Positions 7,280-33,277 of a stretch of 33,355 bases of DNA are shown here, in pieces. Source of the stretch: a virus (lineage: Duplodnaviria; Heunggongvirae; Uroviricota; Caudoviricetes); IMG/VR virus record IMGVR_UViG_3300050187_000003, positions 139,576-172,930 of that record, one strand, 5' to 3'. The stretch's first letter is position 1, and each line of letters starts with the position of its first letter. The notes under the pieces are model-generated. The model was not told the origin of the DNA. It saw only the letters and a program-made list of their open reading frames with translations, and made no database searches. The position numbers and the translations under genes are program-made.

Positions 7280-7282
7280 CGG

Positions 7283-8452: not shown

Positions 8453-8616
8453 CAGAAGATGGCTCCTCTTGTGGTGTCCGCCGGGCGTCAGACGTCAGGG
8501 TGCGGCCTTGTTCCGGCCGCCCCCGTTTCGCCTTTCGTCGCGGCGATGCGTGGGCCAGCCGGGCTGGCAGGATTCGTTGCGGAAAGTGGAGACGGACAGG
8601 GGCGTCCGCCGGTAGG

Positions 8617-8961: not shown

Positions 8962-8982
8962 TCTGGTGGGGGTCCTTTCAGG

Positions 8983-16874: not shown

Positions 16875-17120
16875 TCAGTCAGAAACGGCGTTCTCGGGAG
16901 TCTGAGTCTCGCCGAGGATGGCGTGGATGGCTTCTGCGGTAACGCCGTCGAGTTCGACTTCGGTTGGCATCAGGGTGATGGTGGCGATGGGGCGGCCTTG
17001 CCGCCAGGTGAGGGTGAGTCCTTCGGCTGCGACGGCTAGGGAGATGTCGATGCCGTTGAGGAGGAGTTGCCAGTCGCCGTGGTGTTGGCTGGGCCGGAGT
17101 GTGAGGGTGCAGGGGTTCAT
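16875..17120 (-). CDS. Hypothetical protein (81 aa)
   Basis: ATG 17120 (MNPCTLTLRP); protein-like composition; ends 2 nt before terS. Confidence 0.6.
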   Translation of the reverse strand: MNPCTLTLRPSQHHGDWQLLLNGIDISLAVAAEGLTLTWRQGRPIATITLMPTEVELDGVTAEAIHAILGETQTPENAVSD

Positions 17121-17218
17121 GGGGTGTCCGCAGTGGTGGTGGGCCGGGTTGCCTGCTCGTGGTTGACGGTGGCGACGCTGGGCCGAATCGGGCCGAAGAG
17201 ACACTTCGGCTTGTGCCG

Positions 17219-17249
17219 AAGGTAGCACGGGACCACCTGTCAAGGTCAA
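17219..17249 (-). promoter_or_regulatory. Candidate late-operon promoter
   Basis: Minus strand TTGACC-TTGACA...TGCTACCTT (extended -10, TGnTAnnnT) upstream of the packaging operon. The -35 spacing (19 or 13 nt) is non-optimal. Confidence 0.3.
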
Positions 17250-17656
17250 CCGCTGCCGGTTTTGTGGAGCCGGGTGCGGCGGGTGGTGGTGGCGATGTGT
17301 TCGACGTCGGAGGCTTTGAACATGGGCCAGCCGCGGTCGGAGATGCCCCGGGTTTGGAGGTATTCGCGGGTGCCGGCGGCCGACTTGTAGCCGCGTTTGC
17401 GCCATTGGCGGATGGTTTCGATGTCGACGCCTGCGAGTTCGGCGGCTTCGGCGGTGGTGAGGAGTTGGTCTTCGGGGACGGTGAGGGTGCCGCCGCAGAC
17501 CCAGTCTTCGCCGTAGGCGCGGGCGGTGTCGTCGAGGGCGTCGCAGAGTTGGGGGTTGGCGGTGTGGAGGTGTTGCCGGTAGGCGATGGCGATGCGGCGG
17601 GCGCGTTGGAGGAGGGTGTCTCCGGGGTGGGGCCATTGCTGGCGGGCGGGTTTCAT
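17246..17656 (-). CDS. Helix-turn-helix (MerR/Xis-like) DNA-binding protein
   Basis: ATG 17656 in an ATGA overlap; LLTTAEAAELAGVDIETIRQWRKRG. Confidence 0.8.
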   Translation of the reverse strand: MKPARQQWPHPGDTLLQRARRIAIAYRQHLHTANPQLCDALDDTARAYGEDWVCGGTLTVPEDQLLTTAEAAELAGVDIETIRQWRKRGYKSAAGTREYLQTRGISDRGWPMFKASDVEHIATTTRRTRLHKTGSG

Positions 17657-18483
17657 GCGGCGGGCTGGGGTGTGAGGATGTCGACGACCCACGTTTCGTA
17701 GTGGTTGTGGTCGATTTGCCAGCCGCAGTGGCGGGTGCAGTAGACGGGGGTGGGGTCGTCTGCGCGGCGGGGGGTGTCTTGTTGGATGGGGGCGTGGCAT
17801 TGGGGGCAGGTGCCGGGGAGTCGTCGGGTGGGGCGGGTCCAGCCGAGCAAGCTGCGGGCGCGGCGGCGGAGGTGTTGGAGGTGGTGTACGGCTTGCCAGC
17901 CGGTGACGTCTTGGGGGGGGTCTTCGCAGCCGGTGGGGTAGACGGCGGTGGCTGGTGTTCGGGCGAGGGTTGAGGTGTGGTGGGCGAGGAGTGCGGTTGC
18001 GCGTTGGACTTCGCGGCCTGGTCGGGCGGGTGCAGGTTCGGGTTGTCCGATCCGGGTGCAGGTGATGTCCGCCCAGGTGGTGGTGGTGTGCCGGATTTCG
18101 GCCATGAGGGTGTCGGCGGCGGCGTTGAGCGGCATCGGCGGGGTGGGGTCGCCGTGTGGCTGTGGGTCAAGTGCCTGTGACATGGCTGGATTGTGGAGTT
18201 GCTCCAGGTCAACCCAGTCGTACAGCAGGTGTGCGATGTCCCGGGATGCCGCGGTGAGGCAGGCGTCGCAGAGGGGGTGGGCTGGGGTCGCCGGGTTGGG
18301 CTGGTCAAGGCTGGGGGTGTAGCCGGGGCAGCGTGTGCCGGTGCGGCACAGGGTGTCGGGGATGTGGTTGGCGCCGGGTTGGGGGCAGCCTCGGGTGGCG
18401 CAGGTTTTGCCGCGCCCGCCGGCGCATGGGGTGTAGGGGCCGTGGTGGCAGGGGCAGACGGCCGGACATGAGGTGTCGTGCAT
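17653..18483 (-). CDS. Conserved actinophage Cys-rich protein (possible late regulator partner)
   Basis: LCDAC...PPMPLN...GTCPQC...YCTRHC motifs; coupled to the HTH gene just upstream of the terminases. Confidence 0.65.
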   Translation of the reverse strand: MHDTSCPAVCPCHHGPYTPCAGGRGKTCATRGCPQPGANHIPDTLCRTGTRCPGYTPSLDQPNPATPAHPLCDACLTAASRDIAHLLYDWVDLEQLHNPAMSQALDPQPHGDPTPPMPLNAAADTLMAEIRHTTTTWADITCTRIGQPEPAPARPGREVQRATALLAHHTSTLARTPATAVYPTGCEDPPQDVTGWQAVHHLQHLRRRARSLLGWTRPTRRLPGTCPQCHAPIQQDTPRRADDPTPVYCTRHCGWQIDHNHYETWVVDILTPQPAA

Positions 18484-18658
18484 GTGGGTGATCTCCGTCC
18501 GCGCAGTGTGGGGGTAGGGTCGGGCGCGGTTGGTTGATCACCTGCTGGTGGCAGGTTGTGTGGTGGTGGTGGTGGTGTTGGTGTCGTCCGGTCGGGGAGG
18601 GTCGGACGGCACCAGCCGGGGGGCAGCGGGTGCGCCAGATGTTTGGGCCGGGTACCAC

Positions 18659-18835
18659 TTACTCAAAGAGCAACAGTTGGCAACCCCTAGGGTGTCTTTG
18701 TCGACCAGCTACACGGCGGCGGGTTCCCTCATTCGGCACCGCTACCGTCAGCCCGAACATTCCGTACTCGGTGCGCCAGCGGCGGGTGTACCGCCAACCG
18801 GTGACGTCCAACTCCCGATGCGGCTTCGCCTTCAC
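18659..18835 (-). CDS. Small hypothetical protein (58 aa, below the ORF-track cutoff)
   Basis: GTG 18835 in a GTGA overlap; MKAKPHRELDVTGWRYTRRWRTEYGMFG...QLLLFE*. Confidence 0.35.
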   Translation of the reverse strand: MKAKPHRELDVTGWRYTRRWRTEYGMFGLTVAVPNEGTRRRVAGRQRHPRGCQLLLFE

Positions 18836-19287
18836 TGCCCGTCCGTCTGGGTGATGCGGTCGGCCCGCTCCCGCAGCAATGCCGAAAACGCCGATGGGGA
18901 AAGCGGGGCCGAGCCGCCCCGGTCGATGCAGTCGGCGACTACCCGCAGTGCAGCGGCGACTCCGGCGGCGAAGGTGGCGTCGCGGTGGAGGGTGCCGAGG
19001 TCGCGGCCGATCCGTCGGACGGCTGCGTCTTCGATGGCTTCTGCTGCGGCCGTGACTGCCGGGTCAACGGTCACGGGTTCCTCCGGGTCGGATGTAGACG
19101 AGTCGCCACCAGCGGCCCGGTAGCGTTTGACGTCCGCGTTGTAGTCGGCGGACTGCCGTTCGGTGGCGAACCCGGCCGGTGGAGGTGGTGGCGGTGGAGG
19201 TGAGCCGACCGGGCCTGGCACTTCGACAGTCGAGCTGAGCCGCTGGACTCCAGATCCGGGCAGCGGCGGGTGACGGTCAGACCTCAT
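18832..19287 (-). CDS. Hypothetical protein
   Basis: C-terminal 151 aa of ORF 18832..19749; ATG 19287 overlaps the previous gene's end; helical C-terminus. Confidence 0.5.
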   Translation of the reverse strand: MRSDRHPPLPGSGVQRLSSTVEVPGPVGSPPPPPPPPAGFATERQSADYNADVKRYRAAGGDSSTSDPEEPVTVDPAVTAAAEAIEDAAVRRIGRDLGTLHRDATFAAGVAAALRVVADCIDRGGSAPLSPSAFSALLRERADRITQTDGQ

Positions 19288-19525
19288 CGCTGCCTGTCGC
19301 CTGCCGCAGTGTCCGCTCGGCCCGCCGGAAGCAGTCGGCTTCGTCGGCCTGTGCGGCGTACCGCCACGGTTCTGGTCCGTCGCCTTCCAACGACCATCCG
19401 GACACCTGGCCGGCGTCATCCACGTAGAGGGCGAGGGCGTGTCCGCGTGGATGGAACATGACCCGGTTGATGAGCCACAGGAGGCCGGAGTCTCGGAGTT
19501 CGTTGATCGGACGCGGGTCAGCCAT
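19277..19525 (-). CDS. Conserved phage hypothetical protein
   Basis: GLLWLINRVMFHPRGHALAL motif recognised from small phage proteins. Confidence 0.7.
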   Translation of the reverse strand: MADPRPINELRDSGLLWLINRVMFHPRGHALALYVDDAGQVSGWSLEGDGPEPWRYAAQADEADCFRRAERTLRQATGSDEV

Positions 19526-19535
19526 GCTGGGTTGC

Positions 19536-19838
19536 TCATTCGTGTTGGGCGCGTTCTGGCAGGGTGGAGAACAGGTCCTCCGGGTCGTGGTCTGGAACTG
19601 TCGGCGCGGGCGTGGCCCCGGAAACGTGAATCATTGTGCGCGTTTTGCGGTGGTGTCGGTACAGTCGGCCCTCCCGGATCAGCCGGTTGACGGCGGATCC
19701 GCATTCGTCGACGCGTAACCCGTTTACCTCGGCCCGAAGTACAGTCCACATCGTGGACTCGTTGATCCCGCCCCGCCCCCAGCGGCGTGTCAGTGCCACG
19801 ATCCGCGCGTCCAGGCCGGCGACGTCAGTCGGGGTCAA
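19536..19838 (-). CDS. Hypothetical protein, possibly winged-helix (100 aa)
   Basis: TTG 19838 lies 7 nt after GGAGG; LDARIVAL...CGSAVNRLIREGRLYRH. Confidence 0.55.
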   Translation of the reverse strand: MTPTDVAGLDARIVALTRRWGRGGINESTMWTVLRAEVNGLRVDECGSAVNRLIREGRLYRHHRKTRTMIHVSGATPAPTVPDHDPEDLFSTLPERAQHE

Positions 19839-20313
19839 GATCCGCCTCCCATGTTTGTTGGTAGTCCGGGTGCTGGGCGTATGCCGCAGCGAGCGCGAAC
19901 AGCGTCCGCCCGGACATGCTGACGTCGCCGTGTTCGGCGCAGTCGTCCACGATCCGCCGTTTGGCAGCAACGTCGGCGAGGACGTGGGCCGTGTCGTGGT
20001 GTGCGATGTGAAAGGCCGCGGCAGAACTCGTCTCGGCCTGACCTCGGATCACCAGATGCGGAATCGTTGCTCCCCATGTGGTGGGGTACTCCTCAACGCT
20101 GCGCAACCCGACGGAGGATCTGTCCACCCCTTGGACGTACGCGTCAAGCACCGGATCGATCCTGATTGGGGTGCCCGTTGCTTCGCACTCCCACCGCCAG
20201 TGTTCCCCTGCCGGGGTGTAGCGGTCTCCGTCGCGAGATGCCTCGTGTGCCCACATCTCCTCTTCGCCGTACCGGGCGCGCAGAAATGCGATCAGCGTGG
20301 AGGTTTCGCTCAT
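19825..20313 (-). CDS. DUF6221-like phage protein
   Basis: LIAFLRAR..EEE..A, HIA.HD..HVLADVAAKRRIV and LA.AYA.HPDY motifs. Confidence 0.8.
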   Translation of the reverse strand: MSETSTLIAFLRARYGEEEMWAHEASRDGDRYTPAGEHWRWECEATGTPIRIDPVLDAYVQGVDRSSVGLRSVEEYPTTWGATIPHLVIRGQAETSSAAAFHIAHHDTAHVLADVAAKRRIVDDCAEHGDVSMSGRTLFALAAAYAQHPDYQQTWEADLDPD

Positions 20314-20489
20314 GGACGCCAGCCCTTCTTCCAGTGCCGGGCCGCGTATGTCAGCAGGATGCGCACCATTTCCGACCGGTTCGGACGTCCGTCGGCTGTC
20401 GTCACGCCCTCGTCGGCGGCGAGTTGGTCGATCCGATCGACCGCACTCCACGAGACGCGGGCGTTGAGGTGTCTCCGTCCGGTGTGCAC
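20310..20489 (-). CDS. Ribbon-helix-helix (CopG/Arc-like) regulator, 59 aa, absent from the ORF track
   Basis: GGAGG then GTG; MHTGRRHLNARVSWSAVDRIDQLAADEGVTTADGRPNRSEMVRILLTYAARHWKKGWRP*; ATGA overlap with the next gene. Confidence 0.7.
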   Translation of the reverse strand: MHTGRRHLNARVSWSAVDRIDQLAADEGVTTADGRPNRSEMVRILLTYAARHWKKGWRP

Positions 20490-20507
20490 ACCACACCTCC
20501 GTCCAAC

Positions 20508-20516
20508 ATTTTAGCA
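20508..20516 (-). promoter_or_regulatory. Extended -10 promoter element (TGCTAAAAT) upstream of the RHH gene
   Basis: TGnTAAAAT in a rare AT-rich patch, 18 nt upstream of the GTG. Confidence 0.5.
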
Positions 20517-20627
20517 GATCAGGATGTGTGACAGTCTTTGACCCAGCCGAACCCGGCGCCGGTCTGCTGTTCGACTCCGACGCACCACAACGCGCGCAGC
20601 AACGCCACGATCCGGACGTCCAGGTCG

Positions 20628-21287
20628 TCAGTCGGGGTCGAGGTCGGCCTCCCACGCCTCCGAGAACTCCCGGTCTGCGAACAGTTCCGCCATCCCGGAC
20701 ACCTGCCGCAGGCGACGCACCTCGTCCAGGTCCATGCCCAGCTCCTTGGCGATCCACTGTTCGTCCTTGCCGTTGCGGTGCAACTCCAACACGATGTCCG
20801 ACATGGCGTCGACCTTGTGTTCGCCGCGGGCACGGTTGTGGCGGATGGTCGCGGCGACGCGGTCTTCCCGGCCGGTGCGTTCCGGGTTGATGACGGCGAT
20901 CGGTAGGCGTCCTCGGACGCGTTTGCGGACGGCGCCGACTTCCCGGCCGACACGGTTGCGGTGGAATCCGTCGACCACTTCGTAGCCGATGTCGGTGGGC
21001 CAGGCAACGATGGGCTGGGTGTACCCGTCCTGCATGATGGACAGCTTGAGGAGGTCCATCTCCGGTGGCGCCACCACGTTCGGGTTGTAGTTGTTAGCCT
21101 GAATTTGGTCTGCTTCGACCCACAGCACGCAATCGACCGGCTCGTCCTTCATCGGCGAGTGGTCGCGCAGAGCCAGGCGGATCTCGTTCACCGCGTCGAC
21201 CCGGGCCGCGTCCGGAAGGTCGGCGAGCCTCGCGAACAGCGTCCGAGCCTGTTCGACCAGCGCCTGCCCCATCAGGTCAAGCGGCAC
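20628..21287 (-). CDS. ibrB: IbrB-like ParB/Sulfiredoxin-domain protein
   Basis: EPVDCVLWV, ANNYNPNVVAPPEM.LL..SI..DGYTQPIV, VVDGFHR, ATIRHNRARG and a C-terminal HTH. Confidence 0.9.
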   Translation of the reverse strand: MPLDLMGQALVEQARTLFARLADLPDAARVDAVNEIRLALRDHSPMKDEPVDCVLWVEADQIQANNYNPNVVAPPEMDLLKLSIMQDGYTQPIVAWPTDIGYEVVDGFHRNRVGREVGAVRKRVRGRLPIAVINPERTGREDRVAATIRHNRARGEHKVDAMSDIVLELHRNGKDEQWIAKELGMDLDEVRRLRQVSGMAELFADREFSEAWEADLDPD

Positions 21288-21682
21288 GCCGCACCTCCAT
21301 GAACGAACCCTTCGGCTGGTGAACCTCGACCCCGTTGGCGAGCAGCACCGGCAGAACGACCTCCCCGCACACCGACGTAAAGGACCGGCCCTCGAAGTCG
21401 GCGAGGCGGGCCAGCAGCAGCATCCGCATACACACCCCGGCGACGATAGTCGGGCAGCGTGTATGCGGACTGGAACGTCACCCGGGCGCTGCCGTCACGG
21501 GCCGCGGCGAACCCGGCCACCTTCCGGCCTTCCACGGCGACGTACCAGCGTTTGTTGTCGTCGTCCCAGATGTGACCGCCGACCTCCTTCGCGATCTCCC
21601 GGCGGGCCAGGAACGGCCCCATGGTGGGGTAGAACGACCGGTCCAGGTTTGTCAGTTTGCGGAGAATCAGATCACCTGCCAT
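21277..21682 (-). pseudogene. GNAT-family acetyltransferase with a 1-nt insertion (frameshift near 21427)
   Basis: MAGDLILR...VAGFAA...SAYTLPDYRRRGVY (acetyl-CoA motif A). Removing one base restores YRMLLLARLADFEGRSFTSVCGEVVLPVLLANG...RRAA* (134 aa), ending over the ibrB start. Confidence 0.75.
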
Positions 21683-22887
21683 TCCTCTCGCCTCCTTCTC
21701 ATGCGCTCGCGGTAGCGGACGTACGCCTCCCCGGTCTTCGTCGGGGCGAACGACAGCGTCTTGCAGTGATAGTCGTACTTGAGCAGGGTCTTGCAGATTC
21801 GCGTCCACGACGGCTTGCCCTTCGTCGATGCCGGCCCTTCGTCGGGGATGCCGTTCGCGTACAGGCCCGGGGTCTTGACTGCGTACCAGCGTAGGAACAC
21901 GGCGATCTTGTCGCGGAAGTGGTCTGCCGTAGCCGGGGGCATCGACTCCAGGAGCCGGAACGCGAACTCCCGCCACGTGATCCCGTCCGGTTTCGTGACC
22001 TTGATCCGGCCCAGCACGTTGCCGGACTCACGGGCGTAGATCGCCCCGAAGTTCGCCCCGCTCACCCGGGCGACGACCCGCGCCCACGTCTCCGGCTCGA
22101 TGACCTGGTATAGCCACAGGCCACGCCGCTGGTCGTCGCCGTACGGCTGGCAGATCCGCGCCTGGTGGATCGACAGGCCAGCCTGATGCATGCGGTCGTA
22201 CAGCAGGTTGTACGGCACCCGCTCGCGGGCGCAGTACGTCCAGATGTCCTCGGTTGCCCAGTCGTAAATGGGATACGCGTTGTAGAGGGCTTCCCCGACC
22301 CATGTGGTCCACTGCATTCCGTCGTGGGTCTGCTTGCGGGGGGACGCGATCGTCCGCCACCGGTTTAGTGATTCGGCGGTGCGGATGCCCACGAAGCAGG
22401 CGGTCAGCTTGCCCTGCCCGTACCAGTGCCCGAACGCGGGGGTGAATTCCTCGAACTCCATCCGCCGCTTGAAGAACGGAAAGTAGCCCTCGTCGGTGAT
22501 GGCGTCCTTCGGCGGCTGCCGCACCCAGTCCTGCTCGCGGCCGGGTTCCCAGCACATCCACTGCGGCTCAAACTGGGACACCGCGTTGCGGAGGTTCAGC
22601 GGCAGCGACACCCAGTAGGGGTCGATGACGTCGGCGTGCCGGTCCAGCATGAGCCGGATGTAGTCGATCGTCAGCGTGTACTGGGCTTCGAGGTCAATAA
22701 ACATGACCCCGATGCGTCGACCGCGGCTGCGGGCCTCGTCGCAGACCAGCTCCATCATGACCCCGCTGTCCTTGCCTCCGGAGAAGGAGACGTAGATGCG
22801 GGGGAAGTCGTCGAAGACACGGGCGATGCGCTGTCGGGCGGCGGTCAGGACGTCGACGCCGAGGGGTTTCTTGAGTCGGCTAGCCAC
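21667..22887 (-). CDS. ibrA: IbrA-like PAPS-reductase (CysH) family / DUF3440 protein
   Basis: PP-loop YVSFSGGKDS, FIDLE, VGIRTAESLNR, YPIYDW..EDIW, RICQPYG, RVSGANFGAIY and PSW.RIC..LLK.D..CK.LSF. Confidence 0.92.
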   Translation of the reverse strand: MASRLKKPLGVDVLTAARQRIARVFDDFPRIYVSFSGGKDSGVMMELVCDEARSRGRRIGVMFIDLEAQYTLTIDYIRLMLDRHADVIDPYWVSLPLNLRNAVSQFEPQWMCWEPGREQDWVRQPPKDAITDEGYFPFFKRRMEFEEFTPAFGHWYGQGKLTACFVGIRTAESLNRWRTIASPRKQTHDGMQWTTWVGEALYNAYPIYDWATEDIWTYCARERVPYNLLYDRMHQAGLSIHQARICQPYGDDQRRGLWLYQVIEPETWARVVARVSGANFGAIYARESGNVLGRIKVTKPDGITWREFAFRLLESMPPATADHFRDKIAVFLRWYAVKTPGLYANGIPDEGPASTKGKPSWTRICKTLLKYDYHCKTLSFAPTKTGEAYVRYRERMRRRREEWQVI

Positions 22888-23204
22888 TGGTCCACCTCCT
22901 CTGCGGTCAGGTCGTGCACGTCTCCGTCATCGGTGACGGTCAGCCACCTCGTGGTCCAGCCGGAACGCCGGCCGGTTAGGTGGCGGGACTGGTAGACGCG
23001 CCCGGATTCCAACGTCCACCACAGCCACACCCCGTCTCCTTGTGCGCCTCGGGCTGCGGGGGTGTCTCGTTTCGCGGGCAGGAACCGCCGCTGGTAGCCG
23101 TAGGCCGGGTCCCGTCCGGTGATCTCCGCAACCCACGGTTTCGGTGCCCGGGTGGCTCGGTCGGGTGTCCACCCCCAGGCGCGGGCCGAGTAGGCGGCCT
23201 TCAC
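22845..23204 (-). CDS. Conserved hypothetical protein coupled to ibrA
   Basis: WVAEITG.DP.Y...R.FL...GV..WW.LESG.VY; overlaps both neighbours. Confidence 0.7.
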   Translation of the reverse strand: MKAAYSARAWGWTPDRATRAPKPWVAEITGRDPAYGYQRRFLPAKRDTPAARGAQGDGVWLWWTLESGRVYQSRHLTGRRSGWTTRWLTVTDDGDVHDLTAEEVDQWLADSRNPSASTS

Positions 23205-23551
23205 CGGTCAGCCTTAAGGTCTGTGCGTGCGCCTCGCCCGGGGCGGCGGCTGGCGCGTTCGCGGATGGGGGCCGGGTCGTAGAGGTTCTGCCCCGACCGG
23301 CCGGGCTGGCGGCCGGTCGGGGCGATGCCCCACGCGGAGAGTTGGGCGCGCGCTGAGGCGCGGGTGCCGAGGTTGAGAAACCGGGCCACGTCGTCGGTGG
23401 TCCATCGCGCCTCGGAGGGTTCAAGGTAAGCGCGGATGTCCGCGATCGCCTTCGCCCGGTCGTCGAGGGTGCAGTCGTTCAGGTCGGCGAGTGCCGCCGT
23501 GACGAGGTCGACGATGGGTTGGGGGTCGTGGCCGTGCGTGCTGTCCTCCAC
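23201..23551 (-). CDS. DNA-binding HTH protein with an N-terminal IbrB-like helical segment
   Basis: GTG 23551; C-terminal WTTDDVARFLNL...ARAQLSAWGI...LYDP...RPGRGARTDL; N-terminus aligns to the IbrB N-terminus. Confidence 0.65.
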   Translation of the reverse strand: MEDSTHGHDPQPIVDLVTAALADLNDCTLDDRAKAIADIRAYLEPSEARWTTDDVARFLNLGTRASARAQLSAWGIAPTGRQPGRSGQNLYDPAPIRERASRRPGRGARTDLKADR

Positions 23552-23582
23552 GCACGTAGCATTACTGCACTGCGTAGGAAAA

Positions 23583-24308
23583 TCAAGCGGGCTGGCACGG
23601 CATCCGACGCGATTCGTGGTGATACGGGGCGCGCACCGTCCCCGGCACCCCGCCCACCTGAGGAAACCACCGATCCTGCCACCGAACGGCAGCCTCCGGG
23701 TCCTCCACCACATCCAACGACAGAACCTGTCCCCACCCGTGCCGGGCCAGCCGACCCACATGCGTCAACCGGGACAGCAACTCCCGCAACCGGCCCGGAT
23801 CCGCCAACGCCCACCACGACATCCCATCCACCCACACCGCCTGATGCTGCATGTTCGCCGCCCGCCGCGGACCCAACGCCGGGTGATACCGCTCCGCCGC
23901 CGTCCACCGCACCATCTCGTCCACCGGTGGCCGTCTACGCACCTGCGCCACCGCATGCCGCACCACCCGGTACGAGGCGGCCGAACACGCCCACCCCCAC
24001 ACGGACACCCCATCGGCGCCCAGCAGCCGAGGATCCGGGTCGTCCCGGGTACACGCGGCAGTCCACGTCGCGAACGGTTGGACGAAGTCATGCGCCCACG
24101 ATCCCATCGGAGGAAGCCGCAGCGTCTCCCGATCAGCCGCGTCCAAAGCATCGAGGTACGCCGCCCACGACAGCGGCCCATCCAGGTGCATCGGATCCCG
24201 AGGCAGGCCAACAACCGGTTGGGCGAGACGCGCATCGACCCGCACCGGCGTCCACCGCCCATCCCCCGTGGTGTCGCCCACCGTGCCGGGACTTACCAGT
24301 CGGCTCAC
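23583..24308 (-). CDS. csf3: Type IV CRISPR-associated Csf3 (Cas5-like RAMP)
   Basis: P.RV.ARL..PV...P.HLDG.LSWA, WACS, LL..LTHVGRLARHGWGQV (G-rich loop) and RAPY; GTGA-coupled to csf2. Confidence 0.85.
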   Translation of the reverse strand: MSRLVSPGTVGDTTGDGRWTPVRVDARLAQPVVGLPRDPMHLDGPLSWAAYLDALDAADRETLRLPPMGSWAHDFVQPFATWTAACTRDDPDPRLLGADGVSVWGWACSAASYRVVRHAVAQVRRRPPVDEMVRWTAAERYHPALGPRRAANMQHQAVWVDGMSWWALADPGRLRELLSRLTHVGRLARHGWGQVLSLDVVEDPEAAVRWQDRWFPQVGGVPGTVRAPYHHESRRMPCQPA

Positions 24309-25186
24309 CGGCCGGCCGCCGCGGCGAGCATCGCCATCACCTCGCCCGCGTTGGCGGCCAACATCTCCGCGAGAGTCCCGTCACCGGCTGGCACCGCCGA
24401 CCAGTCGGCGTCGACCCGGCACAGGCCGTACCCCTGTGCCCGCTTCGCCCCCAGGTGCAGGGTGCCGGCGGCCGTCAGCCATCCCCACGCCGCCCGCAGC
24501 GCCTGAACGTGCGGAACGGTCGCGCAGGCCAACCGGAGGGTGCCGTACAAGGTGGCGCCGGCTTTCACCACCTGCCAGTCGTAGATCATCTGCGTGGTGC
24601 GGTCCTTCTCCGGTGTCCCCATCCACAGGTCGGCGTCAACCCACCTATCCACCGGCGCGCCCATCACGTCGTGACGGGTGCCGAACTCCTCATCCCGCAA
24701 CGCCGCGGCGGGCAGCACGGCGTGGGGATGAGTGCGCACCCCGGCCGGCAGCCGCCACGCGTTTTCCGCGCACACCAACCCGAGATGATCCACGTAGAGG
24801 GTGCCGGCCCAGATCTGTCCCCGACCCGAGTAGCCGAGCAGTCCCGCCGGCGGCCACGTCGCGTCGAGGCGCCGGTGTGCCGCCAGGTCGATCTGCGCGG
24901 ACTCGGCGGACGTCAACGCACCACCCGAGTACAAAAGGTCAACCGTCTGCTTGTTCAACGTCCCTGGGGTGGCGGCTACCGCGTCGAGGGTGAGTTCGGC
25001 GCACGCGTTACGGATGGCGTGCCGGAGGCTGTTCCCGGACACGAACGGCACCACTGCCGACGACCCGTCTGGTAGGACAACCTCCTGGGTGCGGAGGAGT
25101 TGGGAGTTGCCGGACGTTCCGGCACCGTGGTGCAGCGGCGACAGCAGGGTCAGGGTGAGTGGGATGGTGGCGGTGATCCGGGTCAT
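24305..25186 (-). CDS. csf2: Type IV CRISPR-associated Csf2 (Cas7-like RAMP backbone)
   Basis: ATG 25186; LTLLSPLHHG, VPFVSGNSLRHAIR, LLYSGGAL, GLLG, QMIY..Q....GA.L and LGAKRAQGYG. Confidence 0.92.
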   Translation of the reverse strand: MTRITATIPLTLTLLSPLHHGAGTSGNSQLLRTQEVVLPDGSSAVVPFVSGNSLRHAIRNACAELTLDAVAATPGTLNKQTVDLLYSGGALTSAESAQIDLAAHRRLDATWPPAGLLGYSGRGQIWAGTLYVDHLGLVCAENAWRLPAGVRTHPHAVLPAAALRDEEFGTRHDVMGAPVDRWVDADLWMGTPEKDRTTQMIYDWQVVKAGATLYGTLRLACATVPHVQALRAAWGWLTAAGTLHLGAKRAQGYGLCRVDADWSAVPAGDGTLAEMLAANAGEVMAMLAAAAGR

Positions 25187-25578
25187 CGGGCGTCCTCGGC
25201 AGGAGTTGGCTTGGCGCGGCGGGCGGTGCGCTGGTGGCGGACCAGTGCGGTGATGGTGAGGGCGTCGCGGGTGGCGAGGGTCCGCCAGCGAGCGAACACC
25301 TGCGGGTCGTCCAGGATGGTTGACAGGTCGGCGATGGTGGCCGACGACGACGCACTGAACGCGTCGACCTCCATCTTCTTCCCGGCCCGAGCGACGCACT
25401 GCCGCCATGACGTTGATGAGGCGGCGGCGGTTTCCAGGGCGGTCTTGGCTCGCTCCCACCAGCGGGCGACACCAATCCGGTTCACGTCGGCGGAGTCCAG
25501 CAGGGCGTAGAGGAAGCGTTCGGCGGCGCGGTGCAGGTCGAGGTCAGTCGGTGGGGTAGGTGCCGACGTAGTGGTCAA
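25183..25578 (-). CDS. cas11: Type IV-B small subunit (Cas11-like, all-helical)
   Basis: 131-aa helical protein (RWWERAKTALETAA...W..CV....KKM) between csf1 and csf2, the canonical IV-B position. Confidence 0.7.
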   Translation of the reverse strand: MTTTSAPTPPTDLDLHRAAERFLYALLDSADVNRIGVARWWERAKTALETAAASSTSWRQCVARAGKKMEVDAFSASSSATIADLSTILDDPQVFARWRTLATRDALTITALVRHQRTARRAKPTPAEDAR

Positions 25579-26275
25579 CGGTCTCCTTTGTGATCATCAG
25601 GTTGGCCAGATGCAGTAGCGGTGTTCCGAAGTGCGGCGCCAACTCGGCGGCGTGGGTCAGCCACACCGACAGCCGGTCGGGGGTGAGGGTGCCGACGGGC
25701 GGCTGCCCGGATTCGATGTGTTCGGCGCGGAACCCGGCCGCCCGCAGCGCCGCGGTGCGGGCCAACGCGGGCCGCCACTCGCTCGGGTCGGATGTGATGT
25801 CGCAGCCGTCGAGCTGCACCGACCAGCGTCGGTTGCCGTGGTTGACCGCGGTGAACGGGGCGGTGTGCTTCTGTCCGGTCTCGGCGACCGCCACCAGCCA
25901 CGCGGATCCGTCCCCGGGCGGGTCGGCGAGGGTGGCTGCGACCCAGCGCAGGTCCCGCCGGTTCGTCAGGTGCAGATGTTTCCCGGTGACGTAGGCGCCC
26001 GGCCGTGACGGCAGGGCGGGGACGTCAGTTCGGGCAACCACCGACCACATGCGGACCGTGTTCGGCGGCCGTCCGCCGAGGGTCCACGAACACGCCTGGC
26101 ACATGCGAGTGCCGTCGATACGTAACAGTTTGCGGTAGTCGGTGAAGTTCGGGCCGATGGTGGCGTGCAGCGGACCCTCGGCGCCGCACAGAGCGCACGG
26201 CCCGACGCCCTTCGCCGAGTCGGTCGGCGGCGGGCCGCCGGCGAGTTCCCAGATCAGGTGGCAGGCGTGGATCAC
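25544..26275 (-). CDS. csf1: Type IV large subunit Csf1 (Cas8-like)
   Basis: GTG 26275; Zn-finger CALCG...NFTD...MCQAC, L.DPP...W.V.VAETGQKH..PF..VN; first gene of the csf block. Confidence 0.82.
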   Translation of the reverse strand: MIHACHLIWELAGGPPPTDSAKGVGPCALCGAEGPLHATIGPNFTDYRKLLRIDGTRMCQACSWTLGGRPPNTVRMWSVVARTDVPALPSRPGAYVTGKHLHLTNRRDLRWVAATLADPPGDGSAWLVAVAETGQKHTAPFTAVNHGNRRWSVQLDGCDITSDPSEWRPALARTAALRAAGFRAEHIESGQPPVGTLTPDRLSVWLTHAAELAPHFGTPLLHLANLMITKETVDHYVGTYPTD

Positions 26276-26900
26276 GCGGCTTCCCAGATGGTCAGCCCGC
26301 AGCCCCACGTCTTGTCGATGCCGACCCCGGAGTGGAGCCGGTCCCGCATCGCCGCCGGGTCAACAACCTGCCACAGCGCCCGAACGACGACCCGACGGAC
26401 GGTGATGGTGCGGCCGGTGCGATGCCGTCCCTTGACCGTTTCTGCGCGGCTAGCGGTGAAGTCGAGCAGGTTCGCGCCATCGATGCGCCGTTCCAGCCAC
26501 GCCGCCTGCTCAACCGGGGTGGTGTACAGGGTCGGCGGGGCGTTCAACCGCTTCCGGTCCGGTTGGGCCGCGGTGGGTCCGCCGGTGGTGCCGTGCCTGG
26601 CCGGGTAACGACCGCGACCATCCGCCACACACCGGCCCGGTCCGGGACGTGCCATGGGCGGGACGCGATGACGCTGGCGTAGCCGCGGGGAAGCCGCGCT
26701 GCGGTGATCGGTTCGGGGGCGCGGATAACGAGCGCGTACCGCTGCGGCTGCGCCCACAAGACCCGGGCATCGTGGTCAGGCATGCCGACGGTGGCGTCGA
26801 TGATCCACCCATGCATGCGGCACAGGTCAGCGGTTTCGGCGCGAACCTCCGGATGGTCGCCGTTCAGGGTCAACGAGGTGAGTACCGGCTCCGCAGTCAC
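26272..26900 (-). pseudogene. cas6e: Cas6e (Cse3/CasE)-like endoribonuclease split by a 1-nt deletion near 26606
   Basis: N-half in ORF 26544..27194 (LTSLTLN..HP.VR....D...MH...RVLW) and C-half in ORF 26272..26757 (EQ.AWLERR, V.DP......L.SGVGIDKTWGCGL). Inserting one A gives RMVAVVNP (the ANP motif) and a 209-aa protein. Confidence 0.8.
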
Positions 26901-27003
26901 CGGCACCACCAGCCCGGGATAGGCCGAGACAGGGCGCGGCGGCGGTGGATGCGGCGGACCTTCGCGACTACGGCGGCGTGCCGAACCCAGCGTTCCAGAT
27001 CGC

Positions 27004-27279
27004 TCACCGCACCCACCGATCCGGGTCACCGTTCGGCAGTCCACGGCGGATCCCGCCACGCTGGTCTGCCTGGTCGTCGTACCGGCGTGGGATGGCGTGG
27101 ATGTGCAGGTGATGAACGGCGCGCCCGGCGGCGGTGCCGTCGTTGATGCCGATGTTCCAGCCGTCCGCGTCCGGAACGCTGCGGCGGACCGCATGGAGCA
27201 GGTCCCACATGTCGGCCCGCTCGGCGGCGGTGGCGTCGAAAATGCTCAGGACGTGAAGGCGGCAGGCGGTGTCGGTCAC
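27004..27279 (-). CDS. HIT-family nucleotide hydrolase, apparently N-terminally deleted
   Basis: WNIGINDGTAAGRAVHHLHIHAIPR histidine triad; lacks the usual N-terminal CxxC...GH segment. Confidence 0.8.
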   Translation of the reverse strand: MTDTACRLHVLSIFDATAAERADMWDLLHAVRRSVPDADGWNIGINDGTAAGRAVHHLHIHAIPRRYDDQADQRGGIRRGLPNGDPDRWVR

Positions 27280-27614
27280 CGCGCAGCCCTTCCGCTACGA
27301 AGCCGTTCGGTCGCGTCGTCTGGCATCGGCGAGCGCCACACCTCGTCGTCGCGTTTCACCATCCCGAACAGGGTCGGGTCGACGCACCGACCGTTGTCGC
27401 GGTGGCGGTCGAAGTTCGTCACCCCACCGAAGGTCATGTGGCAGACCGAGTAGTGCGCCTGCGATGGGGTTAGTGTCCGGCAGTCGGGTCCGCAGCGTGA
27501 CCCGAGCCGTCGTTCCGCGTTACACCGCAGACTACTGACGCCCGTTTGGCATTCAATGGTGGCAACGGTCGGAGTGGTGGGGTTCGTCGCTGCAGATTCG
27601 CTCTGAGGATTCAT
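27276..27614 (-). CDS. FDXHR-type phage zinc-binding protein
   Basis: AHYSVCHMTFGGVTNFDRHR...RCVDP; the usual first Cys of HCxxCH is Tyr here. Confidence 0.7.
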   Translation of the reverse strand: MNPQSESAATNPTTPTVATIECQTGVSSLRCNAERRLGSRCGPDCRTLTPSQAHYSVCHMTFGGVTNFDRHRDNGRCVDPTLFGMVKRDDEVWRSPMPDDATERLRSGRAAR

Positions 27615-30632: not shown

Positions 30633-31420
30633 GACGCCCAGCCGTCCTGGGCGTTGCTGGGGTCCGGTCCGACGGTCACCCACCCGTCGGCATGGGGGGT
30701 GGGGGTTTCGTCGCCCAGGGGGCCGCTGGGCGGGCTGGCGGCCCCCTGGGCGCGCGGCGACGGAACCGGGGTCTCGGCGGTGGAGGAGGTGGGGAGTGTT
30801 TCCTCCGGGGCTGGCGGAGGTAATGCGGGTTCCGGCCGGTCGCCGATTTCCAGGCGGTCGCCGAGGTCGCCGATGGTGATCGGGCAGCCGAGGGCGGCGG
30901 CGAACCCGACCCGGTAGCCCTGCCGGGCGGCGTCGCGGACTGCCTCGCTCTCCCATGCCGCGATGCCGTAGGTGGCGTTGGCGTGAATGGCGGCGAGCTG
31001 GTCGCCGGGGATGTCCTGGCCCTGCGACGGCTGCGGGCGGAGGAGGCGGACGAGGGCGGCGGCGATCGGGTCGTGTGGGGCGGTGACCGGACTGTCGTGC
31101 CAGGAGTCGTACCAGGCGTCGAGCAGCATCGAGATGGCCTCGGCCCGTTCGTCGTCGTCGCGGGCGCCTGCCAGGGCGTGGCGGGTGTTGGCGAGGAGGT
31201 TTTCGGCGGTGGCGCGGGCGTCGTCGTCGAGGTTCTCCACGCAACGCGGCTGCACGGTGTCGGACTGGGCGTACCGGGCGCAGAGTTGGGCGCGGAGGTC
31301 GGTGTTCTCGGCGGTGAGTCGGTCTCGTTCGGCTTCGGCGGTGTTGATGCGGTCGAGGAGGTCGTTGGCGAGGGTGGTGCCGGTGGGCGTCTCGGTGGGC
31401 TGGTCGTGGTCGTCGGTCAT
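30629..31420 (-). CDS. Hypothetical coiled-coil protein, paralog of 33043..33249
   Basis: ATG 31420 after GAGGA; NDLLDRINTAE.ERD.L and DRLEIGDRP are shared with the 68-aa ORF. Confidence 0.65.
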   Translation of the reverse strand: MTDDHDQPTETPTGTTLANDLLDRINTAEAERDRLTAENTDLRAQLCARYAQSDTVQPRCVENLDDDARATAENLLANTRHALAGARDDDERAEAISMLLDAWYDSWHDSPVTAPHDPIAAALVRLLRPQPSQGQDIPGDQLAAIHANATYGIAAWESEAVRDAARQGYRVGFAAALGCPITIGDLGDRLEIGDRPEPALPPPAPEETLPTSSTAETPVPSPRAQGAASPPSGPLGDETPTPHADGWVTVGPDPSNAQDGWAS

Positions 31421-31448
31421 GGGGTGGTCCTCTCGGTGTTGATGGCGG
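31412..31448. repeat. 37-bp perfect direct repeat, copy 1 (copy 2 at 33241-33277)
   Basis: GTCGGTCATGGGGTGGTCCTCTCGGTGTTGATGGCGG occurs at both positions. Confidence 0.95.
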
Positions 31449-32766: not shown

Positions 32767-33046
32767 GGGCGGCCTGCCAGTGGTGACCAGCGAAGGTGAC
32801 CCCGCCTGGGGCATAGGCGCCGGCGGCGAGACCCCGGGCCATGGCGGTGAGCACTTTGGCGGACGCCTTGTGGTCGCGGCTTTCGGTGAGTGCGTCAGCG
32901 GATTCGGCGATGATGTCGGTGGCCTCGTGAGCCCATGTCTCCCGGACGGCATCTCGCCGGTCCGGGGACATGGACTCCAGTTGAAGCATGCACAGCGGCA
33001 CGAGGCCGGTGAGCGCCGTGACGATCGCCGTGTCGCGCGGTCTCAC
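32759..33046 (-). CDS. Conserved phage hypothetical protein
   Basis: VPL.ML.L...ARGLAAGAYAPGGVTFAGHHW; overlaps both neighbours. Confidence 0.7.
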   Translation of the reverse strand: MRPRDTAIVTALTGLVPLCMLQLESMSPDRRDAVRETWAHEATDIIAESADALTESRDHKASAKVLTAMARGLAAGAYAPGGVTFAGHHWQAARA

Positions 33047-33249
33047 GGCCGGTCGCCGATTTCCAGGCGGTCGCGGGCCTGGGCGAGGCGCACGCCGTCA
33101 ATCTCGGCGAGGCTGTTCAGCACCTGGTCCACCGCGCGCTGACGTTGGCGGGCATGGGCCAGTTCGGCGGCGAGGTGGTCGCGCTCTTGCTCTGCGGTGG
33201 TGATGCGGTCGAGGAGGTCGTTGATGATGGTCGGCTGGTGGTCGGTCAT
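33043..33249 (-). CDS. Small coiled-coil hypothetical protein
   Basis: ATG with the same RBS as the 31420 gene; 68 aa. Confidence 0.6.
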   Translation of the reverse strand: MTDHQPTIINDLLDRITTAEQERDHLAAELAHARQRQRAVDQVLNSLAEIDGVRLAQARDRLEIGDRP

Positions 33250-33277
33250 GGGGTGGTCCTCTCGGTGTTGATGGCGG
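33241..33277. repeat. 37-bp perfect direct repeat, copy 2
   Basis: Identical to 31412-31448. Confidence 0.95.

What the first reader, a model, noticed from the sequence alone, without database searches (positions are those of the whole stretch)
20628..26900. Phage-encoded, array-less type IV-B-like Cas complex with Cas6e, linked to an IbrA-GNAT-IbrB module: candidate RNA-guided modification or regulatory system
Seen: ten co-oriented genes, cas6e-csf1-cas11-csf2-csf3-HTH-hyp-ibrA-GNAT-ibrB. All overlap except for a 31-nt gap after csf3. They sit in the early region of a phage next to two DNA methyltransferases. The window has no cas1/2/3, dinG, nuclease or CRISPR array. Known: subtype IV-B typically lacks arrays and Cas6 and is linked to a CysH-like gene of unknown role. 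PAPS-reductase-like, ParB/Srx and GNAT proteins each occur in DNA-modification systems (e.g. DndC, Mu Mom). Inference: the Csf complex may act as an RNA-loaded targeting or scaffold unit for an IbrAB/GNAT enzyme that modifies DNA/RNA or switches gene expression, or it may sequester host crRNAs. It would then not be an immunity system.
Basis: partly seen in the sequence, partly recalled or inferred. Interest (0 to 1): 0.92.

Follow-up and report, generated by a model that had tools for sequence, protein, structure and literature searches.

The report
Phage type IV-B Cas with IbrAB
A temperate actinobacterial phage carries a CRISPR-array-less type IV-B Cas complex with its own Cas6e RNA-cutting enzyme, and the usual CysH-like partner gene is replaced by a four-gene phage enzyme cassette (IbrA, GNAT, IbrB and a small beta-sandwich protein); the same pairing recurs in unrelated phages, which gives a testable lead on what type IV-B systems do.

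Summary
On the minus strand, 26900 to 20628, lie cas6e, csf1, cas11, csf2, csf3, a small unclassified gene, a 119-aa gene, ibrA (PAPS_reduct + DUF3440), a GNAT and a ParB-like ibrB. They overlap except for one 31-nt gap. The context is phage, and no CRISPR array occurs in the 173-kb record. In this copy, cas6e and the GNAT each carry a 1-nt frameshift; relatives are intact.

This is a distinct actinophage clade of subtype IV-B that nearly always includes Cas6e with its catalytic His. In the sister lineage (25 of 26 records) a short CysH-like gene follows csf3. In the window's lineage (5 of 5 contigs with differing flanks) that slot holds hyp119-IbrA-GNAT-IbrB.

The cassette is common in phages without csf. 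However, 5 of the 80 best IbrA loci in IMG/VR carry other type IV csf lineages beside it, and in two of those it sits inside the csf operon. The linkage is therefore non-random.

The two sequenced hosts of related prophages both have I-E arrays, a plausible Cas6e substrate. The mechanism (an RNA-loaded Csf complex working with a PP-loop, GNAT and ParB-like enzyme set) remains inferred. This scan had already noted IV-B plus IbrAB on four other genomes. Verdict: a new variant of a known kind.

The parts
26272..26900 (-). cas6e (Cas6e/CasE-family RNase). It is split by a 1-nt deletion near 26606: frame A runs 26607-26900 and frame B runs 26272-26604.
   Evidence: Pfam CRISPR_assoc: 43.2 bits on the C-terminal half and 17.1 bits on the N-terminal half. 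PADLOC Cas6/Cas6e 1.6e-12. blastx against intact homologues of 200-225 aa places the shift. The catalytic-His column and the G-rich loop are conserved.
25544..26308 (-). csf1, the type IV large subunit, with CxxC...CxxC Zn-ribbon motifs
   Evidence: PADLOC Csf1_0_IV 1.1e-24. NCBIfam cas8u_csf1 is weak at 0.014.
25183..25578 (-). cas11, the type IV small subunit
   Evidence: PADLOC typeIV_Cas11 1.6e-12
24305..25186 (-). csf2 (type IV Cas7), protein P0001, 293 aa
   Evidence: PADLOC typeIV_Cas7 8.6e-93. The best PDB match is 7JHY Csf2 of the IV-B complex, 3.6e-8.
23583..24308 (-). csf3 (type IV Cas5)
   Evidence: NCBIfam cas5_csf3 2.3e-19; PADLOC Csf3_0_IV 1.2e-19
23201..23551 (-). Small 116-aa gene after the 31-nt gap. 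It is a possible Xis/MerR-like DNA binder and is a variable member: present in the window and L005, absent from L038 and the P0012 contig.
   Evidence: No Pfam, NCBIfam or PADLOC match. Only phrog_34233, of unknown function, at 5e-11. The HTH label is inference from sequence pattern only.
22845..23204 (-). hyp119, the conserved first gene of the IbrA cassette; a beta-sandwich with a C-terminal helix
   Evidence: Found upstream of IbrA in 62 of 80 IMG/VR IbrA loci by HMM (58 + 8 in two blastp clusters), in phage CV-1-33 and in L052-L054. The family has 420 cluster representatives. The AF2 model has pLDDT 89. No convincing PDB fold match: best Z 4.8.
21667..22887 (-). ibrA: a PP-loop ATPase of the PAPS-reductase family (SGGKDS motif) plus a C-terminal DUF3440. 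It occupies the CysH-like slot of type IV-B.
   Evidence: Pfam DUF3440 3.3e-30 and PAPS_reduct 9.8e-16. phrog_2302 7.3e-88. 28% identity, E 5e-17, to the Rhodococcus plasmid IV-B CysH-like protein. PP-loop alignment.
21277..21682 (-). GNAT-fold acyltransferase, split by a 1-nt insertion near 21427
   Evidence: Pfam Acetyltransf_1 at 20.2 bits, just under the 20.7 cut-off. Intact 134-136 aa homologues exist. It is fused to IbrB in L054.
20628..21287 (-). ibrB, a ParB/Srx-like protein with a DGFHR motif
   Evidence: Pfam ParB_N 5.7e-5, under the cut-off. phrog_2159 7.8e-71. It follows IbrA in 72-79 of 80 IMG/VR loci.

Best explanation
The locus is a subtype IV-B CRISPR-Cas effector module (Csf1, Cas11, Csf2, Csf3). 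It has no array, adaptation genes, helicase or nuclease. It belongs to a distinct lineage carried by temperate actinobacterial phages.

Two features set it apart from the canonical plasmid form:
1. It has its own Cas6e-family endoribonuclease.
2. In this sub-lineage the signature CysH-like PP-loop enzyme is replaced by a ready-made phage cassette: hyp119 (beta-sandwich), IbrA (PP-loop ATPase + DUF3440), a GNAT acyltransferase and IbrB (ParB/Srx-like).

Shown here: gene identities, architecture, absence of an array, conservation of the nine-gene block, replacement at the CysH slot, and recurrence of csf-IbrAB pairing in other lineages.

Inferred mechanism:
- Cas6e binds and cuts a repeat-type hairpin RNA, most plausibly the host's type I-E pre-crRNA.
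- The Csf proteins assemble on that RNA into a Cascade-like filament.
- The filament acts as the targeting or scaffolding part for the IbrA cassette. That cassette would use ATP (adenylation by the PP-loop) and an acyl or amino donor (GNAT) on a nucleic acid held by the ParB-like subunit. The outcome would be guided modification or silencing, not cleavage.

My odds: about 0.65 that Csf and the IbrA cassette work together; about 0.4 that host I-E crRNAs are the RNA; about 0.25 that the output is a covalent nucleic-acid modification.

In this particular copy, cas6e and the GNAT are each broken by one base. Either the assembly has two errors or this prophage's module is decaying.
For: - Gene identities.
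- Phage context. Six related IMG/VR records have direct terminal repeats.
- The clade is large and coherent. There are 219 Csf2 homologues at E<=1e-5. Thirty viral loci carry cas6e-csf1-(cas11)-csf2-csf3.
- The Cas6e catalytic-His column is kept in about 25 of 28 sequences.
- No arrays were found in any locus.
- A short CysH-like gene lies on the same strand just after csf3 in 25 of 26 sister-clade records. None of them has DUF3440.
- In the window's lineage, 5 of 5 contigs keep cas6e through ibrB, with overlapping genes and different flanks.
- That lineage is monophyletic on Csf2 (support 0.91). On IbrA support is 0.88 in the 38-sequence tree, but the 92-sequence tree places L038 apart from the rest.
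- IbrA shares the SGGKDS PP-loop and 28% identity with a plasmid CasCysH.
- An independent IbrA-centred survey found type IV csf genes of other lineages beside 5 of the 80 best IMG/VR IbrA loci, with GC from 38% to 67% and gene orders that differ. Two have the order csf2-csf1-hyp119-IbrA-IbrB-csf3, and one has both the short CysH and IbrA-IbrB. These sit in at least 4 places on the IbrA tree.
- The GNAT-IbrB fusion in L054 ties those two proteins together.
- Both sequenced hosts of related prophages have casE-cas1 and large I-E arrays.
Against: - The cassette mostly lives without csf: 75 of the 80 best IMG/VR loci, GenBank phages CV-1-33, Streptococcus and Nebkiss phages, and L052-L054 at 73-76% IbrA identity.
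- Within the window's lineage the pairing is consistent with a single capture event, so the five contigs are not independent evidence.
- In the window and L005, a 31-nt gap and an extra small gene separate csf3 from the cassette. This allows separate control.
- The published IV-B complex bound heterogeneous non-CRISPR RNA and not co-expressed I-E crRNA (PMC7937560, as summarised in PMC8175902). IV-B was also reported to correlate negatively with other CRISPR systems (PMC7038947).
- The host I-E evidence is only 2 of 2.
- cas6e and the GNAT are frameshifted here.
- No chemistry, RNA or binding data exist.
Confidence: 0.55

Rival explanations
1. The two modules are independent neighbours. The IbrA cassette is a self-sufficient phage module (DNA modification, or activation of phage gene expression as reported for E. 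coli IbrAB). It landed once beside a csf operon that had lost its CysH-like gene and was then inherited with it.
For: - The cassette is abundant without csf.
- The window's lineage fits a single capture.
- The window and L005 have a gap and an extra small gene between csf3 and the cassette.
- The core cassette's only conserved neighbours are its own genes.
Against: - The pairing recurs in at least 4 other places on the IbrA tree, with other csf lineages and other gene orders. In L082 and L114 the cassette lies between csf1 and csf3.
- The cassette sits exactly where 25 of 26 sister records keep CysH.
- Genes overlap from csf3 through ibrB in L038 and the P0012 contig.
- csf genes are very rare: 0 of 400 other actinobacterial genomes. 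Finding them at 5 of 80 IbrA loci is a large enrichment.
Confidence: 0.2
2. The module is an anti-CRISPR crRNA sponge or hijacker. The phage Cas6e and the Csf proteins capture the host's I-E crRNAs. They either disarm host immunity or reuse host spacers against competing elements. The PP-loop enzyme is secondary or regulatory.
For: - Cas6e with its catalytic His is conserved across an array-less phage clade.
- Both sequenced hosts carry I-E arrays with standard 28-nt repeats.
- The idea is already in the literature for IV-B (PMC7038947, PMC8175902).
Against: - It does not explain the near-invariant PP-loop partner, nor its replacement by IbrAB.
- Other csf-IbrAB lineages lack Cas6e.
- The JS623 complex did not take up I-E crRNA (PMC8175902).
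- Only two hosts were examined.
Confidence: 0.25
3. In this record the module is a decaying remnant. The two frameshifts are real, so Cas6e and the GNAT are not made and the operon is at best partly functional.
For: - There are two single-base indels at conserved positions. Neither lies in a long homopolymer.
- All four relatives examined have intact genes.
Against: - The other eight genes are intact with strong codon bias.
- Two indels in 6.3 kb could be assembly errors. Reads could not be obtained.
Confidence: 0.35

Closest known systems
Subtype IV-B CRISPR-Cas (Csf1-Cas11-Csf2-Csf3 plus CysH-like). Reference complex: Mycobacterium sp. JS623, PDB 7JHY. Typical carriers: Rhodococcus and Mycolicibacterium plasmids.
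   Same: It has the same four effector genes. It has no array, adaptation genes, helicase or nuclease. A PAPS-reductase-family PP-loop gene follows on the same strand. It is carried by a mobile element of Actinobacteria. The best PDB match of Csf2 is 7JHY.
   Different: - Csf2 is only 26-30% identical to the plasmid forms.
- A Cas6e gene heads the operon. The literature reports Cas6 in IV-B as 12 rare exceptions (PMC7038947).
- The carrier is a phage, not a plasmid.
- The accessory is a 406-aa IbrA with DUF3440, plus hyp119, GNAT and IbrB, rather than a roughly 280-aa CysH-like protein.
Sister actinophage IV-B clade with Cas6e and a short CysH-like gene (for example the Phytoactinopolyspora limicola and Brevibacterium otitidis prophages, L003 and L004)
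   Same: It has the same cas6e-csf1-cas11-csf2-csf3 order. Csf2 is 39-54% identical. It is array-less and in a temperate-phage context.
   Different: The sister clade has a 245-350 aa CysH-like protein with an SWGKDS loop. It has no DUF3440, hyp119, GNAT or IbrB.
IbrA/IbrB cassette of phages and prophages (named after the E. coli co-activators of prophage gene expression; phrog_2302 and phrog_2159)
   Same: IbrA is 56-76% identical to IMG/VR homologues and 61% identical to phage CV-1-33. The order hyp119-IbrA-(GNAT)-IbrB is the same.
   Different: Here the cassette is joined to a csf operon. Most cassettes are not: 75 of the 80 best IMG/VR loci lack csf.
DndB/DndC and other pairs of a ParB-like protein with a PAPS-reductase-like protein in DNA modification systems
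   Same: A PP-loop PAPS-reductase-family enzyme is paired with a ParB-like protein. Weak DndC matches were found (PADLOC 4.9e-8; NCBIfam 1.7e-5).
   Different: There are no DndA, DndD or DndE partners. The DndC scores are far below the family cut-offs. DUF3440 and the GNAT are not Dnd features. This is a resemblance only.

Membership tests
Subtype IV-B CRISPR-Cas | Csf2 (type IV Cas7) present | tested here: met
   PADLOC typeIV_Cas7 8.6e-93; PDB 7JHY Csf2 3.6e-8
Subtype IV-B CRISPR-Cas | Csf1, Csf3 and a Cas11-like small subunit present | tested here: met
   PADLOC 1.1e-24, 1.2e-19 and 1.6e-12; NCBIfam cas5_csf3 2.3e-19
Subtype IV-B CRISPR-Cas | No associated CRISPR array | tested here: met
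   No array in the window, the 172,930-bp record or 37 related loci
Subtype IV-B CRISPR-Cas | No DinG or RecD helicase, no HD nuclease, no cas1 or cas2 | tested here: met
   No such family was found among the ten ORFs or the flanking ORFs
Subtype IV-B CRISPR-Cas | Adjacent cysH-like (CasCysH) accessory gene | tested here: inconclusive
   A PAPS-reductase-family PP-loop gene is present at the slot. It is 28% identical to a plasmid CasCysH. However, it is an IbrA-type paralogue with DUF3440, not the short form found in the sister clade.
Subtype IV-B CRISPR-Cas | No Cas6 | tested here: not met
   A Cas6e gene heads the operon. It is conserved in about 26 of 29 clade loci. Published IV-B has only rare exceptions (PMC7038947).
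Cas6e (CasE/Cse3) | Match to the family profile over the curated cut-off | tested here: met
   PF08798 at 43.2 bits against a cut-off of 25 on the C-terminal half. NCBIfam casE_Cse3 at 27.1 bits is below its cut-off of 45.2.
Cas6e (CasE/Cse3) | Catalytic histidine and C-terminal glycine-rich loop | tested here: met
   In an alignment with two host Cas6e proteins, the His column is kept in the window and in about 25 of 28 clade members, and the GxGxxKxxGxGL loop is kept
Cas6e (CasE/Cse3) | Intact reading frame | tested here: not met
   A 1-nt deletion near 26606 splits the gene. Whether it is a sequencing error could not be tested.
IbrA/IbrB pair | IbrA with PAPS_reduct plus DUF3440 | tested here: met
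   Pfam 9.8e-16 and 3.3e-30, both over their cut-offs; phrog_2302 7.3e-88
IbrA/IbrB pair | ParB-like IbrB encoded just downstream | tested here: met
   phrog_2159 7.8e-71. Pfam ParB_N at 23.5 bits is under its cut-off of 26.3. My IbrB HMM also hits the annotated IbrB of Streptococcus phage CHPC1230.
IbrA/IbrB pair | Activates prophage gene expression (the function that gave the name) | not testable with these tools
   Needs an experiment
GNAT acetyltransferase | Profile match over the cut-off and an intact fold | tested here: inconclusive
   Acetyltransf_1 at 20.2 bits against a cut-off of 20.7 on the N-terminal part. The gene is frameshifted here. Intact homologues carry only weak precomputed GNAT hits.
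Dnd DNA phosphorothioation (DndC) | DndC-level profile score and DndA, DndD and DndE partners | tested here: not met
   NCBIfam DNA_S_dndC at 23.9 bits against a cut-off of 290. No partner genes were found in the window.

The most novel reading that the evidence does not exclude
The phage Cas6e loads the Csf filament with host type I-E crRNAs (or another hairpin RNA). The filament then delivers the hyp119-IbrA-GNAT-IbrB enzyme set to matching DNA or RNA. There the set adenylates a base or backbone position and then acylates or aminates it. That would be an RNA-guided covalent nucleic-acid modification or silencing system, and it would also explain the CysH-like partner of all type IV-B systems.
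Probability: 0.15. Interest if true: 0.9.

Novelty: new variant of a known kind. Interest (0 to 1): 0.62.

Why it matters
Type IV-B is the one CRISPR-Cas subtype whose function is still unknown. Its near-invariant CysH-like partner is regarded as the key to that function (PMC7038947, PMC8175902).

Three observations here make the question more testable:
- The CysH slot can be filled by a whole IbrA-GNAT-IbrB cassette, and that cassette pairs repeatedly with different csf lineages. This ties two uncharacterised systems together and names candidate co-factors: a ParB-like DNA binder, an acyltransferase and a beta-sandwich protein.
- A sizeable phage clade of IV-B keeps an apparently active Cas6e without any array. 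This points to a borrowed RNA substrate, and the two known hosts have I-E arrays.
- Intact natural operons are available as starting material (L005, L007, L038).

Tried and rejected
- Megablast of the region against GenBank phages and PLSDB plasmids found no match.
- The Rfam scan of the window found no CRISPR repeat family or any other credible RNA.
- Searches for arrays, mini-arrays and I-E-like hairpins in the window, the whole record and all loci found only coding tandem repeats and terminator-like hairpins. One I-E-like hairpin at G000:79193 follows a stop codon and looks like a terminator.
- The consensus promoter scan found no sigma-70-like site in 19500-27600. The promoter-like look of the 31-nt gap is therefore unsupported.
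- Complex prediction on Csf1 plus IbrA returned no answer. It is not used as evidence either way.
- The hyp119 model had no convincing fold match: Foldseek found no hit at E<=0.001, and VIA-align gave a best Z of 4.8 among generic Ig-like sandwiches. The Atlas gave nothing usable.
- Proteins in which the hyp119 domain is fused to about 380 extra residues have no Pfam family.
- A host-statistics test failed for lack of cases: this Csf2 clade was found in 0 of 400 other actinobacterial species genomes.
- Earlier scan notes say the cassette alternates with an SNF2 helicase. blastp clustering of ORFs within 7 kb up- and downstream of 80 IbrA loci showed no such conserved neighbour. I ran no SNF2 profile, so this stays open.
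- The literature search on IbrA/IbrB was swamped by an unrelated acronym, and the search on DUF3440 gave nothing useful.

Full report
**The sequence**

The window is the last 33 kb of a single 172,930-bp virus record with about 69% G+C. Codon-position G+C shows that almost all genes lie on the minus strand.

From 26900 down to 20628 I read ten genes:
- cas6e, 26272-26900
- csf1, 25544-26308
- cas11, 25183-25578
- csf2, 24305-25186
- csf3, 23583-24308
- a 116-aa gene, 23201-23551
- a 119-aa gene (hyp119), 22845-23204
- ibrA, 21667-22887
- a GNAT, 21277-21682
- ibrB, 20628-21287

All junctions overlap except a 31-nt gap after csf3.

Profile searches confirm the names:
- PADLOC gives Csf2 8.6e-93, Csf1 1.1e-24, Csf3 1.2e-19, Cas11 1.6e-12 and Cas6/Cas6e 1.6e-12.
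- NCBIfam gives cas5_csf3 2.3e-19.
- Pfam gives DUF3440 3.3e-30 and PAPS_reduct 9.8e-16 for IbrA, and CRISPR_assoc above its cut-off for the Cas6e C-terminal half. The ParB_N and GNAT hits fall just under their cut-offs.
- PHROGs places IbrA in phrog_2302 (7.3e-88) and IbrB in phrog_2159 (7.8e-71).
- The best solved relative of Csf2 is the Csf2 of the type IV-B complex 7JHY.

The surroundings are phage: a serine integrase, C5 and N6/N4 DNA methylases, HIT, a phage Zn-binding protein, TerL, portal, MuF and capsid.

No CRISPR array, mini-array or Rfam CRISPR repeat is present in the window or the whole record. The csf and ibr genes are single-copy in the record.

**Two broken genes**

cas6e spans 629 nt, which is not a multiple of three.
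- blastx against intact homologues maps residues 2-95 to one frame and residues 96-204 to another. The switch is at about 26606, where GTT ACC CGG stands in place of GTT AAC CCG. That is a one-base deletion in the conserved NP motif.
- The GNAT switches frame at about 21427, right after RRRGVY. One extra base is present there.
- Homologues in L005, L007 and L038 are intact, at 200-225 aa and 134-136 aa.
- I could not obtain reads. Sequencing error and real decay therefore both remain possible.

**The Csf side**

Csf2 has 219 homologues at E<=1e-5 in the large protein collection, mostly metagenomic. The canonical plasmid IV-B Csf2 proteins of Rhodococcus and Mycolicibacterium are only 26-30% identical.
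- A profile-guided scan of IMG/VR returned 30 viral loci with Csf2 39-54% identical to the window's. Many are proviruses, and six have direct terminal repeats.
- By tblastn and HMM, nearly all carry csf1, csf2 and csf3 in the same order.
- About 26 of the 29 loci with enough upstream DNA carry a Cas6e gene in front.
- In an alignment that includes two host Cas6e proteins, the catalytic-His column is kept in about 25 of 28 phage sequences. The C-terminal glycine-rich loop is kept throughout.
- None of these loci has an array.

[quoted passage not shown] What I see is a coherent actinophage clade of IV-B in which Cas6e is the rule. It is rare in genomes: 0 of 400 other actinobacterial species representatives have it.

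**The CysH slot**

My first tblastn survey found IbrA, GNAT and IbrB only in the closest relatives. That looked like independent assortment.

A Pfam PAPS_reduct search of the 26 viral records changed the picture. Twenty-five of 26 have a PAPS-reductase-family gene. After coordinate conversion, it always lies on the csf strand, 0.1-1.5 kb past csf3, as an ORF that is mostly 245-350 aa long (three are longer). None of these has DUF3440. Only two records have any ParB_N match. HMMs of hyp119, GNAT and IbrB find nothing there. The sister clade is therefore classical IV-B plus Cas6e.

In the window's lineage, which spans Csf2 identity from 77% down to 59%, five contigs carry hyp119-IbrA(404-406 aa)-GNAT-IbrB at that position. 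They are the window, L005, L007, the P0012 contig and L038. No short CysH is present, and the flanking genes differ. In L038 and the P0012 contig every gene from csf3 to ibrB overlaps the next.

The lineage is monophyletic on Csf2 (support 0.91) and is sister to the short-CysH clade. The plasmid IV-B and Skermania phage SPI1 serve as outgroups, and both also have a CysH-like gene. In the 38-sequence IbrA tree the csf-linked copies form one clade (0.88), nested among csf-less actinophage cassettes; the 92-sequence tree places L038 apart from the rest.

IbrA is 28% identical (E 5e-17) to a Rhodococcus plasmid CasCysH over the PP-loop domain. Both have SGGKDS, whereas the sister clade's short proteins have SWGKDS.

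The simplest reading is one displacement of the CysH-like gene by a paralogous enzyme that arrived with its own partners.

**The cassette**

IbrA homologues are very numerous. All 8000 scored candidates reached E<=1e-20, and many are 68-83% identical.
- GenBank phages carry IbrA-IbrB with no csf genes. Examples are CV-1-33 (61% identity, with a hyp119 homologue in front), Streptococcus thermophilus phages (annotated IbrA and IbrB) and Mycobacterium phage Nebkiss.
- At 73-76% identity, a Dactylosporangium roseum prophage and two metagenomic contigs carry hyp119-IbrA-GNAT-IbrB with no csf within 7 kb.
- In one of them (L054) GNAT and IbrB are a single 363-aa protein.

The GNAT is therefore part of the actinophage form of the cassette and was not added in the csf context.

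hyp119 has 420 cluster representatives. It folds with high confidence (pLDDT 89) into a beta-sandwich with a C-terminal helix. It has no convincing structural relative.

**Recurrence**

Earlier notes of this scan report IV-B plus IbrAB on four other genomes, none similar in sequence to this Csf2. I tested that lead from the IbrA side.
- IMG/VR holds at least 564 IbrA loci, and the best 80 were fetched with 10-kb flanks.
- IbrB follows IbrA in 72-79 of the 80. A hyp119-like gene precedes it in 62 of the 80 by HMM (58 + 8 in two blastp clusters). No other neighbour is conserved.
- Five of the 80 have type IV csf genes beside the cassette. My HMMs and, independently, PADLOC confirm them (Csf2 down to 7.4e-69, Csf3 down to 2.5e-34).

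The five loci are diverse:

| Locus | G+C | Gene order |
|---|---|---|
| L073 | 67% | csf1-csf2-csf3-short CysH-IbrA-IbrB |
| L113 | 61% | csf2-csf3-IbrA-IbrB, then a second PAPS-like gene |
| L082 | 40% | csf2-csf1-hyp119-IbrA-IbrB-csf3 |
| L114 | 38% | csf2-csf1-hyp119-IbrA-IbrB-csf3 |
| L112 | 66% | csf2-csf1-hyp119-IbrA, then the contig ends |

In L082 and L114 the cassette therefore lies inside the csf operon. None of the five has a detectable Cas6e.

On the larger IbrA tree the five sit in at least four places apart from the window's lineage. Given how rare csf genes are, this recurrence, and above all the interleaved order, argues for a functional tie. I did not see the SNF2 partner that the earlier notes mention, but I ran no SNF2 profile.

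**A possible RNA source**

Two relatives are prophages in sequenced genomes, Phytoactinopolyspora limicola and Brevibacterium otitidis.
- Each host also has a strong host-type casE next to cas1.
- Each host also has a long array of 28-nt type I-E repeats with a 61-nt period.

A phage Cas6e without an array of its own would find its substrate there. This is only 2 of 2. It also runs against two published points: the reported negative correlation of IV-B with other CRISPR systems (PMC7038947), and the finding that the JS623 complex bound heterogeneous RNA rather than I-E crRNA (PMC7937560, as summarised in PMC8175902). That plasmid system has no Cas6, however.

**Mechanism and odds**

Shown: identities, architecture, absence of an array, replacement at the CysH slot, and recurrence.

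Inferred:
- Cas6e nucleates Csf assembly on a hairpin RNA.
- The filament targets or scaffolds the cassette.
- The cassette's PP-loop ATPase adenylates a substrate, the GNAT transfers an acyl group, and the ParB-like protein holds nucleic acid.

This extends the published proposal that CasCysH modifies nucleic acid bound by the IV-B complex (PMC8175902).

I put about 0.65 on functional coupling, 0.4 on host crRNA as the RNA, and 0.25 on covalent modification as the output.

The rival explanations are mere neighbourhood, a crRNA sponge, and decay of this copy. They are weighed in their own sections. A Csf1-IbrA complex prediction returned no answer and counts for nothing.

**Verdict**

The locus is a new variant of a known kind, and this scan has already seen csf-IbrAB pairing on other DNA.

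Noticed in passing
window 19823-19851 and 20626-20654: A 29-nt direct repeat (90% identical) covers the stop regions of ibrB and of the DUF6221 gene. Both proteins end in WEADLDPD. This suggests a duplicated gene junction.
   Followed up: partly
window 30833-30861 / 33046-33074, 31407-31448 / 33236-33277, 31308-31375 / 33164-33231: Perfect or near-perfect repeats bracket the serine integrase. They belong to paralogous genes on either side of it. A third paralogue lies at G000:35213-36343, 56-92% identical.
   Followed up: no
L009 (Skermania phage SPI1, KR011061) 5792-9425: Orf40-44, all annotated as hypothetical, look like an unannotated type IV-B set. Orf42 matches Csf2 at 30% identity, and the last ORF has an SGGKDS PP-loop. 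No Cas6e was detected.
   Followed up: partly
L073 8761-11826: This 110-kb viral contig has both the short SWGKDS CysH-like gene and IbrA-IbrB directly after csf3. It may be an intermediate between the two architectures.
   Followed up: partly
L054 8191-9282: GNAT and IbrB are fused into one 363-aa protein in a csf-less cassette.
   Followed up: yes
L005 14948-15553 (-): A 201-aa ORF with a precomputed Cas_Csd1 (PF09709) hit lies just downstream of ibrB in the closest relative.
   Followed up: no
G000:41112-41230 (outside the window): A cluster of palindromic repeats (TAGTCCGCCAGGCGGACTA) lies next to an A+T-rich stretch. It looks iteron- or origin-like.
   Followed up: no
window 17001-19000: There is a strong positive GC skew (0.38 and 0.25) and weak coding signal between the DUF6221 gene and the terminase. 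The ORFs overlap in different frames.
   Followed up: no
proteins P0270, P0275, P0288 and others (alignment A3): In about a dozen cluster representatives the hyp119 domain is the C-terminus of proteins of roughly 480 aa. Their N-terminal part holds three N-R-x-x-G-x-C-x-x-C Zn-ribbon-like repeats and matches no Pfam family.
   Followed up: partly
L029 13385-13490: Two copies of a hairpin-forming 22-nt repeat (CGAATGGGGAATGAGACCCCAT), 79 nt apart, lie just downstream of the CysH-like gene of a sister-clade locus.
   Followed up: no
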